From NCBI GenBank assembly GCA_965202585.1, contig OZ241833.1:34286001-34350000 (forward strand): a stretch of DNA of 64,000 nucleotides, read 5' to 3'. The stretch comes from Thalia democratica (lineage: Eukaryota). Made by a program: the position numbers. Below are positions 1 through 18,000 of the stretch, in pieces; positions within the stretch are counted from its first letter, which is position 1, and the number at the start of each line of letters is the position of its first letter.

Positions 1-3000
1 AGAGGCCTTTCTGGTACAGTTAGACCTATTGTGAAAAGTTTCAGAGACTATAGTAGTGTATTGATGTACAACAAGAGCATGATATTTTCATGTTTTGACG
101 TGAAGTTTTGAAAAGTTGCAAACAAATCTAACAAATTGCCACGGAATATTCTCACAGTAGTTAAGCAGCTGTCGACTTTCTCATCTGAAATTTCGCATAT
201 TTGTTGTTACGTCATAACTGCGGCATTAAACACATGTGACGAGATGAAAATATGCGCGGAAATATTTGATGTGAATTTCATGAGTTGGTCGGCGGTGTGA
301 AAAAAAATAAGGTTTTCAAGTACAAGTTGTAAAGACTAGTTTTGTAACCAAGTATTTTAAAAACAAGTTTGATAGCTTCTAAGTTAATTGTTAAAGTGTA
401 TGTTGACTCTTTATTTGTTCAATAGCAGTTATTTTTTGTTTAATACATAAAACTCAAAAGTATATTTTTCAAATAATTGTTTCAAACTTTTTTTTTAACT
501 TCCTTTGAATAAACCATTGTAGTCAAGCTTTTTAAATTGTAAGTACACACTTTAAATTTTTAACATTTTAATATGGAATAAATAAATCTTTTAAAATTAA
601 AGTTAGAGAACAGCACTTTCAATGAAATATATGGTAAAAAATATTTTCACTTAAGTGTCTTGTAAAAAAGAGTAAATTTAAAAGTAATTTGAGCAATTAA
701 AATTCAAGAAATTTATTTTAAAATGTTTTAATTTGTAATTCAATTTGTAATTCAATTTGTAAGCAGTTAAATACTCTGTTAAACATGTATTTAGAAAAAA
801 ATTAAGTAGTTTTTAATATCTGCTTATTAAAATATGAGCATATAAACACTATTAGTTTGTTATTTTCATGCTTCAAAACTTGACTCAAAAAGCCAAGTTA
901 ACTGATTAACGTTGTTTTTTATTTTACAAGTAAGTGTCAACATAACTAACCGTTAAATGCAGCTTAGTTTACAAGCTTTTTACGCACGGAAGACATATTT
1001 CATTTCAGCACAACAAATTAAAAAAAAAGGTAACTTAATAAGTTGAGTGAAATAAAACTATTGTTTATTTTGCAACAGCTAAATTCAAAAAACTAACCAT
1101 CAGACACAGTTTAGTGCCAATTTTTTTCCTCACAAAAAACAACTTATTTTACTTTAGCACAACTGTCTGTTTGCTGTGCGGTAATTCTGGATATCCTAAA
1201 AAGTGTTTACACACGTGCACTCGTACACATGTGCACACAAATCACTTCAGCTGTTGAAGAATTATCTTACACTGTGTAAGTACGTTGGGGATTCAAATGG
1301 AAAAAATACAACAAAATGTATTTTGTTTGATTTTGCAGGTTTTTACAGATTTTTGAATTTTGAGTTTTCAAATGCTTTGACTCCGAGAATCGATTAGATT
1401 TGTTCGGATAACTCTATATATATACTTTTAAATTTAGTTGGAATAAAAAAATTCTTCAAACTGCTAGTTGTTTTACATACAAACGGTTTTACTAGTGTGT
1501 TCCTTTTTGGACAAGTTTAAGAAGTTGAACGTTGAAAAAGCTATTTATTGTTCATAACCATTGTTTGTTATATCTCAAAGTTTGTTTTACAAAATGCTAC
1601 TATACCATCATGGTGTAACCATAACTCAGATTATTTTAATTATAGAATAACTTACTTAGCCTTATAACAAACTAAAAAAGAACAAACCTAAAAGTGCTTT
1701 CTAATACTTATGACAATTATAATAATATTAACGATAAAGTTCTTAGTTATGTTCGTAATATTGTAATATTTTTATGTTACAGTTATATGTTAGTTAAGCT
1801 AAAAACAAAGCAAGAAATGATAAACGCAAATAAACTTTTTAAAAAGCCTTTACCGGTCGTAAATGCGCTATTCATCAAAGCACAGAACAAACATCAGACT
1901 TTTCAATCAGCAGCGCAACAAATCATTTAAGGCGACTTGTGAGAAATTTTCCCTTTGTTTGCTTCGTCAGGTGCGCTGGCGACTTCAAGTCTGCTCAATG
2001 CACGTGCAACCTCGAGAAAATTGAAAAAAAAAAAAATTAAGAGATGAAATACGAGATAGCGGGTGGTAATTGGGTGGGATAATGTGAAGAAACAACTCTG
2101 AGAGCTTGGAAGGAAAAAAAAAGGCAGTTTGTCGCGCATATAAGCGGAGCTGAGCTGCAAAAAATTATTACTTCAAAGTCTGCAGCGGCAAGCACACAAG
2201 CTAAAAACTCAAAATGGTAAAAGCAAGCAAAATAGTATCTTCCAGCGAAAACAAAATCAGCAAAAACTCTTTGGCCATCAAAAAGAACGACGATTTGAAA
2301 GTGAAGGAGACGCTTTCGAAGCTGCAAAATATCCTGCCAAAATGCTGCGATCAAAACATCCTGCCAAAGTGTGGCGATGAAGAGGACCAGCTTGAAATAA
2401 TTCAGCAGGCCATCTACTACATCCGGGACTTGAGCGAGTTGCTGAATAAACCTCAGATCTCAGGAATGAAAAAGATCAGTAATCAGAACATCGTGTCTTC
2501 TCCAGTGTGAAATGCAGAATAACTTACAAGGTAAATATTTTATTTTAGATATTAAAAAGTTTAAACTATATACTAAACTTCTTGCGAGGTAAATATTTAT
2601 TTGTTTCACACGTTTTGAGTTGATAGTCAAAAAAGATATCAGCTTTTGATATATTTGTTAAAATATACTTAAGGTTTAATCTGTTTTTAACGTAAAAGTT
2701 AACAAAATATAGTTTAATAAAACATAAAAGTTATTTAAAACTGTATCATTCAAATGATTAGATGTTAAATGAAACACTAAAAATACACTTAATTAAGAAA
2801 CAAGTCACTTATGATGTACAATTTTTCAGATAAACGGAACAAACTTTGCAACTTTCACAAACTTGCCAGATGGAGCAACCGAAGTTTCGACAAGTTTTTT
2901 CAGCAGCTATGACGTCAAAAACAGCGTAATAAGAAAGTTGTTCGCCGAGTGGAAGCTAGCGCGGAATGAAAACTGAATAAAAATATATGAATTGTTTTTT

Positions 3001-15000: not shown

Positions 15001-18000
15001 GCTGCTACAGACTTTGAAGTAATAATTTTTTCTTGGCCCTGCTCCGCTTATATGCGCGACAAACCGCCTTTTTTACTTCCAAGCTCTCAGAGTTGTTTCT
15101 TTACATTATCCCACCCAATTACCACCCGCTATCTCGTATTTCATCTTTTTTAATTTTTTTTTCAATTTTCTCGAGGTTGCACGTGCATCGAGCAGACTTG
15201 AAGTCGCCAGCGCACCTGATTTGCAAGCAAACAATGAAGATTTTCAATGAAGATTTCTCCAGACTGGCTGGCGCCCCGCACCTGCAGCGAAAAGCGAAGA
15301 TTTTTTTTTGGTGAGAAAAATTTTCGCAGCCAGACTTGAAGTCGCCAGTGCTCTAAACGCGAAAATGATTTGCTGCAGAAATGAAAATTAATTTTTGCAA
15401 CATTTTTTGCAGCTCCGATTGCCTTGTGCTGCAAAACTAAATATTATAAATATTTATTAATATTATTAATATTTAATTGTTAAAATATAATCAAAAATTT
15501 TATAAGAAAAAAAAGTATATCGGTTATTTTTAAAAACTTACTAGTTAACCCTAAAAAATCAATACAAAGAAAAACTTATTTTTGCAGCTCCTACACTGTT
15601 TTGTGCTGCAAAGTTGAAAGTTGATTTTGAAAACTTTTCTGATTTAAAAATCATTTGAAAGAGAAAAATTTGAGATTTTTTTCTAAATTTATAAGTTAAT
15701 CAATTTTTGAAAAAAAAACGTTTTGTAATCGAAATTTTCTTGCAAGTTAGACGTTTAAAACAAATTATAACTATTTTTAAGCTTGTTAGTCAACCCTTCG
15801 TATATTTCCGACATAAACTAAAATTTCTGGTTCTAAAATTTTTATCTCGACTAAAGTTAGTTTTTATAAGACTTATGTAACTTATAGACTTGAAAACACT
15901 AAACCAGTTGTCAGATATATTTAAAAAACGTTCAACTAAAAAATGTTACATCAACTTTTAACAATCCATTATTAGCTTTGAGCTTTAACTTTTTATTTTT
16001 CTGTATTAAATATACATAAAATTAAATATACAAAATTTTACTTTTAAAGCAGTAATTATAGGTTGAGCTAATATAATTTTTGTTAAAATGTTTGTTTAAG
16101 CACAATGGTTAAAAATATTTTTTTTTATGTTCTAAGTAGTTTTAGAATATTTATAGAAAACTATGTATTTTGATTAAAAAATAATTTAATAAACAGCTAA
16201 ATTTTAGTTTTTTTGTACTTTCAAATACTTGCTAGCTTAAACAAATGTGTTTCATAAGTCACGATTAATTTACTTTATACTAGTAAACTTGTAAGAGTTT
16301 ACTAGTATAAAGTTGCAACAGTTGTAAAAACTTGCAACAGTAGTAAAAACTTATTGAAAAATCGTTTTGTAGATTAACTGAACTAATTAAACAATATTTG
16401 GTTAGTTTTTTTAAATTTTTAATAATTAACCAGTTTTGTTCAAATAACACTCATAGCGAAAATGAAGCATACACGTTTCACAATTCAAACAATTAGCAAG
16501 TGTATACAAAAAACTACGATGCTTTTGTAACTAATTTTTATTTTTTTAAAAACATCTTAATTGTTAATTATAGTGAGAAAACTATAAAATATCGTGAACA
16601 AACCATTTTGAGCACCTTAAGTAGTTTGTACACTCTTTTGAAGAAAACAAATATTATAAATGATATTATAAATACTAAAAATAAGTTTAGTGGTTATTCG
16701 TGCGGTAAGCACTTGTTTTGAAAATATATTTTATTTGCGCAACTTTTATCGTAAGTTAAGTGTTAACGAAAACAACAGTTTTTACGCGTTAAAAATAAGT
16801 TTTGTGGTTTAGCTTAGTAAATAATATGTTTTCAAAATAAACTTTTGTTTGTATGATTTAGTCGTAATCCTTAGTAGGTTGTTTTTTCTTGCAAAGCTAA
16901 CATTTACTATTATTTTACAATACAATAAATACTATTTTCTATTACCTCTTTTAACTGTGTTTAATCTGTGCTTAATTCAAAAAAAATTATTATTTTATAA
17001 CTATGCCATAATATCAATAATAAATTAATCTAGTAAATATGCAGTTTTACACAGAAATAGTAGTTTTTTCAGCTAATATATTTTAATTCCGATAAAGTTC
17101 TGAATGCTGTAAAACGTTTTCTTTCACTTGTAACAAAACACTTGAAAAAAGATTTCAACTTATTACCAAAAAAAGCTTTAAAAATTGTTTTAAAAGATCC
17201 AATACTTCAGAATGTTTTCTGTACACTAAAAAAAACTTTAATTCATTTTCTTGCAACTTACCTTGCACTGCAATACGACTGAAAAGTTAGCTAAGAAAAT
17301 GTTTATAATTTTAATTAAGAAAGTGTTAAAACATTAGACACGAAAACCATCAACAGAAATTAAAGACTAAAACATATTCTGCAATGCTTTTCAAAAAAAA
17401 AACACTAAAAAGTGTATAAAACCCTCAAACTTATTTTATCGCTGACAGCTTTGTAATTCACGCTGAAAAAATATTCATATTAAAAAAAATACGTCAAAAT
17501 AAAACTTTTCACAGCTTAAGCGTTCTCACAACGTCGCCCAGATGGAAAGAGTCGCCATGGCAACGTTCTTCCCACACGTTTCCATGGCAACCGACACGAC
17601 ATGAAAGGGGCCGGACCAGATGCGAGGTGACCACGCGACCCAGCCCTGGCAACCCTGGCGACAACTGCTTACCATGGCAACCGAAAGTCGCAACAAACCG
17701 GTGTTTTGTACGGATCCCGCTGTGCATATTTATTTGCTTACGTCACAATGACTGTGACATCACCGCGAGCGGTATGAGAAAGGGAGCTGGATTCGCATTG
17801 GTAAACAGCTGCTTGTTTGCACTAGTGACGTACATCGTATAAATTTTGCCACAAAGTTCGGCTGAGCCAGGGCAGCTTGTGCAAGTCGGGGGTTTTTCTA
17901 GAAAAAGTTGCTCGCACTTTATAACAAAAACCTTCCGCGGCCGCATTTGTTTAAAGTGCAAAATACTATTCTAAAGCAACGAGATGAATAAAAAGCAGTA

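What the first reader, a model, noticed from the sequence alone, without database searches (positions are those of the whole stretch)
1967..15219. Id-1/Id-2 inverted pair: near-identical promoter and exons but unalignable introns
Seen: the two genes converge about 12 kb apart. The CDS differs at 9 of 297 nt, with a ~140-nt perfectly identical run. The proximal promoter and 3' exon align, but the introns (299 vs 252 bp) and flanks do not. Inference: an old duplication kept homogeneous by arm-to-arm gene conversion. A recent duplication or uncollapsed haplotype would retain intron similarity.
Basis: partly seen in the sequence, partly recalled or inferred. Interest (0 to 1): 0.68.

Follow-up and report, generated by a model that had tools for sequence, protein, structure and literature searches.

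The report
Id-like gene pair with patchy homogenisation
Two facing copies of a small Id-like regulator gene are real and belong to a four-gene cluster full of BMP-response motifs, and short stretches of these genes and their switches look repeatedly copied between copies, which is a familiar way for gene families to evolve.

Summary
Two convergent 297-nt reading frames (2214-2510 +, 14976-14680 -) differ at 9 sites, with a 141-nt identical run. The promoter (93%) and 3' exon (90%) align.

"Unalignable introns" is overstated. The last ~190 nt of the intron align at 70-78%, beyond all 400 random window segments. Only ~90 nt near its 5' end has no counterpart.

Silent sites show the contrast. The central 213 nt of the reading frame has 0 silent differences over 41 silent sites. 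The frame ends have 5 over 17.8, and the alignable intron differs at 50 of 179.

The pair is not alone. The window holds a third paralogue (48389-48156 -), a divergent helix-loop-helix gene (31742-31443 -) and a gene-less copy of the promoter module (24221-24633). The third copy matches copy 1 at 135 of 138 nt in the core but is unalignable elsewhere. Seventy-four upstream nt are identical between copies 2 and 3.

Seventeen Smad-type BMP-response motifs occur where 0.00 are expected.

Best reading: short-tract gene conversion plus selection in a BMP-responsive Id-like cluster. This is a known kind of process. Organism and orthologues could not be checked.

The parts
1944..2213 (+). Copy 1 promoter block homologous to copy 2. 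It holds a Smad-type composite motif at 1978-1993, E-box-like CAGGTG and CACGTG, and a TATA-like TATAAG at 2139-2144.
   Evidence: 245 of 263 aligned bases identical to 15243-14977. Motif. Sequence. Homology to the other upstream copies starts at about 1954.
2214..2510 (+). Copy 1 reading frame: a 98-residue helix-loop-helix protein without a basic region.
   Evidence: Pfam HLH match below cut-off, E 0.039, covering profile positions 16-52 of 53. Model with helices at residues 24-45 and 56-77.
2241..2458 (+). Central tract of the reading frame with no silent difference from copy 2. It largely coincides with the core shared with copy 3.
   Evidence: Silent-difference-free run of 218 nt, permutation p=0.006. 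0 silent differences over 41 silent sites in nt 31-243. Core match to copy 3 is 135 of 138.
2325..2378 (+). 27-nt tandem duplication inside the loop (QNILPKCCD / QNILPKCGD). Present in copies 1 and 2; a single unit in copy 3.
   Evidence: Tandem Repeats Finder: period 27, 2.0 copies, 85% matches. 4 of 27 differences between the units.
2531..2829 (+). Copy 1 intron (299 nt), starting 20 nt after the stop codon.
   Evidence: GT and AG read from the sequence. Identity by section. Null tests.
2830..2981 (+). Copy 1 3' exon up to the AATAAA at 2976-2981. It contains a 48-codon open frame and a TGACGTCA at 2910-2917.
   Evidence: 132 of 147 identical to 14408-14262, with the second half at 73 of 76. 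Open frame. Motif.
14977..15346 (-). Copy 2 promoter and upstream module, with three Smad-type motifs (15193-15208, 15260-15275, 15331-15346).
   Evidence: 15309-15236 is 74 of 74 identical to 48707-48634.
14680..14976 (-). Copy 2 reading frame (98 residues).
   Evidence: Pfam HLH E 0.016.
14409..14660 (-). Copy 2 intron (252 nt).
14211..14408 (-). Copy 2 3' exon and the end of homology with copy 1.
   Evidence: (homology 1944-3022 vs 15243-14211).
48156..48389 (-). Third paralogue reading frame (77 residues). The core is near-identical to copies 1 and 2; both termini are unalignable.
   Evidence: core 135 of 138; N-terminal part 25 of 44; C-terminal part 15 of 35. Silent divergence in the core is 2 over 25.3 sites.
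48558..48988 (-). Upstream module of copy 3, with four Smad-type motifs (48591, 48658, 48762, 48973).
24221..24633 (+). Gene-less copy of the upstream module, with three Smad-type motifs (24415, 24485, 24552). No helix-loop-helix frame follows it.
   Evidence: (75% to 15531-15116; 95% to 48706-48559).
31443..31742 (-). Divergent helix-loop-helix gene (99 residues) in the same cluster. Smad-type motifs lie at 32904 (upstream) and 30110 (downstream).
   Evidence: (HLH E 0.0074).
5602..5760 (.). Distal module, copy 1 of 3. It carries GGCGCC-N5-GTCTG (5648-5663) and CACCTG.
9430..9559 (.). Distal module, copy 2 of 3.
   Evidence: 99.2% identical over 130 nt to 44824-44695. Alignment.
44695..44824 (.). 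Distal module, copy 3 of 3.

Best explanation
Gene structure (shown). The two genes are convergent paralogues of a small helix-loop-helix protein that lacks a DNA-contacting basic region. Each unit is about 1.08 kb: a promoter with a Smad-type BMP-response motif, a 98-codon exon, an intron just after the stop codon, and a 3' exon.

Cluster (shown). They sit among four such genes, plus a gene-less copy of the promoter module and three copies of a distal module.

Function (inferred from family knowledge). As in Id/Emc proteins, the product would bind other bHLH factors and keep them off DNA. The genes would be switched on by BMP signalling through Smad1/5-Smad4 at the GRCGNC-N5-GTCTG motifs.

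History (inferred from the divergence pattern). The duplication is old; neutral divergence is about 0.28 differences per site in the intron and at silent sites of the frame ends. Short tracts of roughly 75-220 nt have since been copied non-reciprocally between paralogues (interlocus gene conversion). These tracts cover the helix-loop-helix core and the response modules. Selection on those modules keeps enough identity for conversion to recur there, while introns, termini and flanks drift apart.
For: (1) Divergence is strongly uneven within one 1.08-kb unit: reading frame 288 of 297 identical, promoter 245 of 263, 3' exon 132 of 147, intron 2641-2829 only 129 of 179.

(2) Silent sites: 0 differences over 41 sites in the centre of the frame, against 5 over 17.8 at its ends (Fisher p=0.0017) and 50 of 179 in the intron (p=1.4e-5). 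The longest silent-difference-free run has permutation p=0.006.

(3) The third paralogue is a mosaic. Its core is 135 of 138 identical to copy 1, with silent divergence 2 over 25.3 sites. The flanking coding parts match at 25 of 44 and 15 of 35 (Fisher p=1.7e-17).

(4) Relationships change along the upstream region. Copy 2 is 74 of 74 identical to copy 3 over 15309-15236, a block that copy 1 lacks. It is closest to copy 1 (129 of 139) over the proximal 150 nt, which copy 3 lacks.

(5) Three distal modules share about 130 nt at 99-100% identity. Their flanks are unalignable and the boundaries differ between pairs.

(6) Identity of the genes. Pfam HLH matches begin at profile position 16-18, so there is no basic region. 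A profile of the four window proteins finds ID-1 first among solved structures (E 0.012-0.017), then ID-2 and ID-3 (0.055-0.063). The model has two helices with a loop.

(7) Response motifs. GRCGNC-N5-GTCTG occurs 17 times against 0.00 expected (0 of 100 shuffles give any). With 4-nt and 6-nt spacers it occurs 0 and 0 times. The motif and the need for a 5-bp spacer are described in PMC9508838 and PMC11907993 (passages read).
Against: - No orthologues, population data or transcripts were available, so the defining test of concerted evolution (paralogues grouping by species) was not done.
- The near-identical patches coincide with the parts expected to be functional. Unusually strong constraint could therefore mimic conversion.
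- The silent-site counts are small: 5 differences in all.
- The run test on all 9 differences is only p=0.028.
- The 3' side of the intron shows a gradient (70%, 78%, 83%, 96%) rather than a sharp tract edge.
- The Id assignment rests on sub-threshold matches: Pfam 14.2-16.9 bits against a cut-off of 20.7; PDB profile E about 0.01, with ARNT-type bHLH proteins interleaved at 0.055-0.07.
- BMP responsiveness is inferred from motifs only.
Confidence: 0.62

Rival explanations
1. No conversion. The identical patches are held by purifying selection on the DNA or RNA sequence itself, for example dense factor-binding sites in the modules or silent-site constraint in the helix-loop-helix core. The rest drifts.
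For: The patches coincide with the helix-loop-helix core and with motif-bearing modules. Identity falls off gradually on the 3' side of the intron.
Against: Selection rarely fixes every base. Observed instead: 0 silent differences over 41 sites, 74 of 74 identical upstream bases between copies 2 and 3, and about 130 nt at 99-100% in three distal modules. No overlapping conserved frame explains the pattern: the antisense frame 2037-2459 has no counterpart of 90 residues or more in copy 2. No RNA family or stable fold was found.
Confidence: 0.17
2. A recent duplication of the 1.08-kb unit, followed by unusually fast decay of the AT-rich intron through slippage and indels.
For: The intron is 21% G+C. 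It has a 44-nt length difference and a 90-nt stretch with no counterpart.
Against: Gap-free intron blocks still differ by substitutions at 22-30%. Silent sites at the two ends of the reading frame differ at the same level, 5 over 17.8. The first half of the 3' exon differs at 12 of 71, against 9 of 297 for the frame (p=7.8e-5).
Confidence: 0.1
3. The response modules, but not the reading frames, were spread by a small mobile element that carries Smad-type motifs.
For: Three distal copies are 99-100% identical over about 130 nt with unrelated flanks.
Against: The edges of the shared block differ between pairs: 5.6 kb vs 9.4 kb share about 245 nt, while 9.4 kb vs 44.7 kb share 130 nt. I saw no terminal inverted repeats or target duplications on reading the alignment. 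It does not explain the core of the reading frame.
Confidence: 0.08
4. Assembly artefact or uncollapsed haplotype.
For: None found beyond the high identity of the reading frames.
Against: The copies are inverted, with unique flanks. The introns differ in length and sequence, and the upstream modules differ. A third paralogue shows the same kind of mosaic.
Confidence: 0.03

Closest known systems
Id.a / Id.b of the ascidian Ciona robusta (group D HLH genes), as described in PMC7693978, section 6.4 (read in full)
   Same: Two HLH genes without a basic domain lie on one chromosome in opposite orientations, about 9 kb apart.
   Different: That paper reports only two such genes, with three unrelated gene models between them. 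It says nothing about near-identity or conversion. This window has four HLH frames, and I found no convincing coding frames in the 11-kb spacer. The organism of the window is not established, so this is a resemblance, not an identification.
Id.a, b, c, e and f of the ascidian Phallusia mammillata, regulated by BMP (PMC9238270, passages read)
   Same: An expanded Id family whose members respond to BMP gain and loss in ventral ectoderm. This matches a multi-copy Id-like cluster loaded with Smad-type motifs.
   Different: The words 'tandem' and 'cluster' do not occur in that text, and no motif analysis is given in the passages I saw. Here the response is inferred from sequence only.
'ID-like' SMAD composite motif of vertebrate ID1-4 (PMC11907993, passages) and the Drosophila BMP silencer element GRCGNC-N5-GTCTG (PMC9508838, passages)
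   Same: Same two half-sites and the same obligatory 5-bp spacer. There are 9 strict GGCGCC-N5-GTCTG and 17 GRCGNC-N5-GTCTG matches, and none with 4- or 6-bp spacers.
   Different: The density is unusual. PMC9508838 counts 385 matches in the whole fly genome; here there are 17 in 64 kb, although many are paralogous copies (8 distinct spacers). Binding and response were not tested.
Capitella teleta Dlx pair (PMC3199776, abstract and section 'Gene conversion in C. teleta' read)
   Same: Developmental transcription-factor genes in an inverted tail-to-tail pair. The domain-coding part is near-identical at nucleotide level, with a conversion tract of about 150 bp.
   Different: A different gene family. 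Here conversion-like patches also cover promoter and distal modules and involve a third, non-inverted copy.
Arm-to-arm conversion in large palindromes (recalled from general knowledge, no paper read here)
   Same: Inverted orientation, which lets copies exchange sequence without deleting the spacer.
   Different: Palindrome arms are near-identical along their full length, non-coding parts included. Here identity is limited to patches within a 1.08-kb unit, and intron and flanks have diverged.

Membership tests
Id/Emc (group D helix-loop-helix proteins) | A helix-loop-helix dimerisation domain | tested here: inconclusive
   Pfam PF00010 matches all four window proteins, but below its cut-off: 14.2, 15.5, 16.9 and 16.5 bits against 20.7. 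The AlphaFold model has helices at 24-45 and 56-77 with pLDDT about 90 in the helices, mean 64.8. The fold search gave 0 matches at E<=0.001 among 495 at E<=10.
Id/Emc (group D helix-loop-helix proteins) | No basic DNA-contacting region before helix 1 | tested here: met
   The Pfam alignments start at profile position 16 or 18 of 53, so the basic part is unmatched. The residues before helix 1 read KKNDDLKVKE, which includes acidic residues.
Id/Emc (group D helix-loop-helix proteins) | Closest relatives are Id proteins rather than other bHLH classes | tested here: inconclusive
   The profile of the four window proteins against PDB sequences puts ID-1 in the top three (E 0.012-0.017), with ID-2 at 0.055 and ID-3 at 0.063. 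ARNT/BMAL1 score 0.055-0.07. Single-sequence searches found no HLH protein. Atlas neighbours are HLH, ID-4 and ID1 clusters at 0.88-0.89, below the 0.9 mark. Large protein databases were closed, so no tree was made.
Interlocus gene conversion / concerted evolution | Paralogues are far more alike in some tracts than neutral sites of the same unit allow | tested here: met
   0 silent differences over 41 sites in the centre of the frame, against 50 of 179 in the intron (p=1.4e-5) and 5 over 17.8 at the frame ends (p=0.0017).
Interlocus gene conversion / concerted evolution | Mosaic structure: the nearest relative changes along the sequence | tested here: met
   Copy 2 is identical to copy 3 (74 of 74) in one upstream block and closest to copy 1 (129 of 139) in the next. 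The copy 3 core matches at 135 of 138 between unalignable termini.
Interlocus gene conversion / concerted evolution | Paralogues group by species rather than by orthology; polymorphisms are shared between copies | not testable with these tools
Palindrome with arm-to-arm conversion | Long inverted arms that are near-identical along their whole length, non-coding sequence included | tested here: not met
   Homology is limited to 1944-3022 vs 15243-14211. The intron block 2538-2793 differs at 121 of 260 columns. The flanks are at background.
Smad1/5-Smad4 BMP-response element | A GC-rich half-site (GGCGCC or GRCGNC), exactly 5 bp, then GTCTG | tested here: met
   17 matches (9 of them strict GGCGCC) against 0.00 expected. 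0 matches with 4-bp and 0 with 6-bp spacers.
Smad1/5-Smad4 BMP-response element | Smad binding and BMP-dependent transcription | not testable with these tools
   Needs reporter assays or Smad1/5 chromatin profiling.

The most novel reading that the evidence does not exclude
Whole regulatory modules, and not only coding sequence, may evolve in concert here. BMP-response modules and the helix-loop-helix core are kept base-for-base identical among sites up to 39 kb apart, while everything between them is randomised. Conversion tracts seeded in, and confined to, functional modules would then be the mechanism that keeps a family of Id-like paralogues under the same BMP control. The gene-less module at 24.2-24.6 kb would serve as an extra donor or shadow enhancer.
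Probability: 0.3. Interest if true: 0.6.

Novelty: new member of a known kind. Interest (0 to 1): 0.4.

Why it matters
If it holds, the locus is a compact natural example of how a developmental gene family stays co-regulated. The coding core and the signal-response switches are homogenised together, while the rest diverges.

It also warns annotators and tree-builders. Similarity between these paralogues does not date their duplication, and reads from the identical core cannot be assigned to one copy.

The phenomenon itself, gene conversion between linked paralogues including inverted transcription-factor pairs, is well known.

Tried and rejected
- Single-sequence searches of solved structures with copy 1 and with the divergent gene found no HLH protein: 3 weak NifB hits, and 0 hits.
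- The fold search of the model gave only generic two-helix hairpins, with 0 of 495 matches at E<=0.001.
- Rfam gave 0 matches and tRNA search 0 genes.
- RNA folding of the conserved half of the 3' exon gave z 0.28 and -0.98, so no structure signal.
- The antisense open frame 2037-2459 (140 residues) has no counterpart of 90 residues or more in copy 2. I take it as chance.
- A profile search of 1,272 open frames of 25 residues or more found only the four HLH frames the profile was built from; the next best hit had E 0.98.
- Open frames in G+C-rich islands did not look coding on reading them. The four non-HLH, non-RING frames sent to Pfam gave nothing credible.
- The 48-codon frame in the 3' exon is open in both copies, but chance gives that in 4-5% of shuffles and at 5 of 70 TTTCAG-preceded sites in the window. 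It stays undecided.
- A mobile-element origin for the distal modules was considered and ranked low (see rivals).
- A GENECONV-type test on the three frames was considered and not run. The core has almost no variable sites, so that test has no power there.
- A literature search combining ascidian terms with 'BMP response element' listed 10 of 76 papers, none containing that phrase. A search for gene conversion in ascidian paralogues listed 12 of 427, none about Id genes.

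
Full report
**What is there.** The window is 64 kb of AT-rich eukaryotic DNA: about 27% G+C, no N, no tRNA and no Rfam match. Two 297-nt reading frames face each other, 2214-2510 on the plus strand and 14976-14680 on the minus strand. They differ at 9 sites (5 silent, 4 non-silent, 3 residue changes), and the longest identical run is 141 nt. The inverted-repeat finder reports five arm pairs covering promoter, reading frame and 3' exon, with the main arms 12,141 nt apart. A sensitive self-comparison joins 1944-3022 to 15243-14211 in one gapped alignment at 81.9% over 1,093 columns.

**Section-by-section identity.**

| Section (copy 1 coordinates) | Identical / aligned |
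|---|---|
| Promoter 1944-2213 | 245 / 263 |
| Reading frame 2214-2510 | 288 / 297 |
| Stop codon to splice donor | 16 / 19 |
| Intron, first 20 nt | 17 / 20 |
| Intron 2551-2640 | 31 / 46, plus 44 gap columns |
| Intron 2641-2778 | 89 / 128 |
| Intron 2779-2829 | 40 / 51 |
| 3' exon 2830-2976 | 132 / 147 (first half 59 / 71, second half 73 / 76) |

The outer flanks reach 64-67% in ungapped columns, which is the background for this composition.

**The introns.**
- Against 400 random segments of the same window, 2641-2778 vs 14460-14591 and 2779-2829 vs 14409-14459 score higher than every null segment.
- 2551-2640 vs 14592-14637 scores like noise: 137 of 400 null segments do as well.
- Dinucleotide shuffles give z 7.4 for the whole intron (0 of 300) and 2.4 for its interior (4 of 300).
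- A two-breakpoint scan puts the divergent block at 2538-2793, with 121 of 260 columns different inside against 80 of 836 outside.

The intron is therefore homologous but old. About 28% of aligned bases differ over its last 179 nt.

**Silent sites.** Over the whole frame, silent divergence is 5 over 58.8 sites and non-silent divergence 4 over 235. The silent changes all lie at the two ends.
- Nucleotides 31-243 have 0 silent differences over 41 sites. The ends have 5 over 17.8, the same level as the intron.
- Centre vs ends: Fisher p=0.0017. Centre vs intron: p=1.4e-5.
- A permutation over silent-site weights gives p=0.006 for the 218-nt run free of silent changes. The cruder test on all nine differences gives p=0.028.

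This is the main argument that the centre of the frame was overwritten after the duplication.

**The pair is part of a family.** A third paralogue lies at 48389-48156 on the minus strand (77 residues).
- Its core is 135 of 138 identical to copy 1, with silent divergence 2 over 25.3 sites.
- Its N-terminal and C-terminal coding parts match at only 25 of 44 and 15 of 35. Core vs the rest: p=1.7e-17.
- Copies 1 and 2 share a 27-nt tandem duplication in the loop that copy 3 lacks.

A fourth, divergent helix-loop-helix frame lies at 31742-31443 on the minus strand. A profile search of 1,272 open frames found no others.

**The upstream regions form a mosaic.**
- Copy 2 bases 15309-15236 are 74 of 74 identical to copy 3 (48707-48634) and 72 of 74 identical to a gene-less copy at 24451-24524. 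Copy 1 lacks this block.
- The next 76 columns are 90-96% alike in all four.
- The proximal 150 nt, with the TATA-like box, is shared only by copies 1 and 2 (129 of 139).

Three distal modules (5602-5760, 9430-9559, 44695-44824) share about 130 nt at 99-100% identity, with unrelated flanks and pair-specific edges.

**What the genes are.** I translated and searched exon 1 and the 3' exon separately.
- Pfam's HLH model matches all four proteins below its cut-off (14.2-16.9 bits against 20.7), from profile position 16-18 onward. The basic region is therefore absent.
- A profile of the four proteins finds ID-1 first among solved structures (E 0.012-0.017), then ID-2 and ID-3 (0.055-0.063), with ARNT-type proteins interleaved.
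- Atlas neighbours are HLH and ID clusters at 0.88-0.89, which counts as a lead only. The divergent gene scores 0.85-0.86.
- The model shows helices 24-45 and 56-77 around a loop, mean pLDDT 64.8. The fold search was uninformative.

'Id-like' is reasonable but not proven.

**Regulatory motifs.** The Smad1/5-Smad4 composite GRCGNC-N5-GTCTG occurs 17 times against 0.00 expected. Nine of these are the strict GGCGCC form. Spacers of 4 or 6 nt give 0 and 0 matches.
- Eight motifs lie within 600 nt upstream of the three Id-like start codons.
- Three lie in the gene-less module.
- Four lie in distal elements: the three repeated modules plus a G+C-rich island at 10.7 kb.
- Two flank the divergent gene.

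Many are paralogous copies; there are 8 distinct spacers. I first recalled the motif and then found it in print. PMC9508838 (passages) gives the consensus, the half-site assignments and 385 matches in the whole fly genome. PMC11907993 (passages) describes the 'ID-like' composite near ID1-4 and the strict 5-bp spacing.

**Comparison with the literature.**
- PMC7693978 (section 6.4 read in full) reports two group D genes in Ciona robusta in opposite orientation about 9 kb apart.
- PMC9238270 (passages) reports BMP-regulated Id.a, b, c, e and f in Phallusia.
- PMC3199776 (abstract and one section) reports an inverted Dlx pair with a conversion tract of about 150 bp.
- I saw nothing in these texts, or in the listings, about conversion or response motifs at an Id cluster. 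Those searches were narrow.

The organism of the window was not established.

**Verdict.** The conversion reading is the best-supported one, at a confidence of about 0.6. It applies to a family of modules rather than to palindrome arms. The decisive cross-species and population tests remain undone. This is a new example of a familiar process.

Noticed in passing
window 31422-31725: The divergent helix-loop-helix gene holds 8 of the window's 12 GACGTC and 5 of its 9 TGACGTCA (CRE-like palindromes). Expected counts are 2.05 and 0.29, and 0 of 100 shuffles reach the observed counts. On reading the frame, the copies inside it fall on Asp-Val codons.
   Followed up: partly
window 2910-2917, 14321-14328, 10740-10747, 59166-59173: The remaining TGACGTCA motifs lie elsewhere. 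Two sit at the start of the 96%-identical second half of the 3' exon of copies 1 and 2. One is in a G+C-rich island at 10.55-11.0 kb that also carries a Smad-type motif (10698) and E-box-like sites. One is at 59.2 kb.
   Followed up: partly
window 2830-2976 and 14408-14262: A 48-codon frame is open from the first base of the 3' exon in both copies and ends at the same TGA. A weak GT at 2506 / 14684 (CCA|GTGTGA, phase 0) would put it in frame with the main reading frame. Chance openness is 4-5% in shuffles, and 5 of 70 TTTCAG-preceded sites in the window are as open. The exons were not joined or searched as one.
   Followed up: partly
window 2325-2378 (and the matching part of copy 2): A 27-nt tandem duplication lengthens the loop by nine residues (QNILPKCCD / QNILPKCGD). 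Copy 3 has a single unit.
   Followed up: yes
window 24634-24760: After the gene-less promoter module comes a G-run and a 14-codon ATG frame, followed by a GTAAAT that looks like a splice donor. No helix-loop-helix frame follows within the window. It could be a remnant of a lost copy or the first exon of something else.
   Followed up: partly
window 42255-43094 and 56395-57250: An inverted pair of non-coding repeats, about 850 nt and 80% identical, with internal ~200-nt tandem units. The pair brackets copy 3. No open frame of note.
   Followed up: partly
window 60287-60931 (-): A 214-residue open frame ending in a RING finger (Pfam zf-RING_2, E 6.7e-12). It is the only other clear coding sequence seen in the window.
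   Followed up: partly
window 17451-18000, 18551-18950, 26101-26650, 35551-35900, 37151-37700, 39201-39750: G+C-rich islands (0.43-0.56 in a 27% background) without convincing open frames. They may be regulatory elements of the cluster.
   Followed up: no
window 48146-48158: Copy 3 also has a GTAAAT donor-like site 8 nt after its stop codon, as copies 1 and 2 do 20 and 19 nt after theirs. An intron just downstream of the stop therefore seems a shared feature of the family.
   Followed up: no
window 13682-13781: A 47-nt unit repeated 2.1 times at 96% identity, downstream of copy 2.
   Followed up: no
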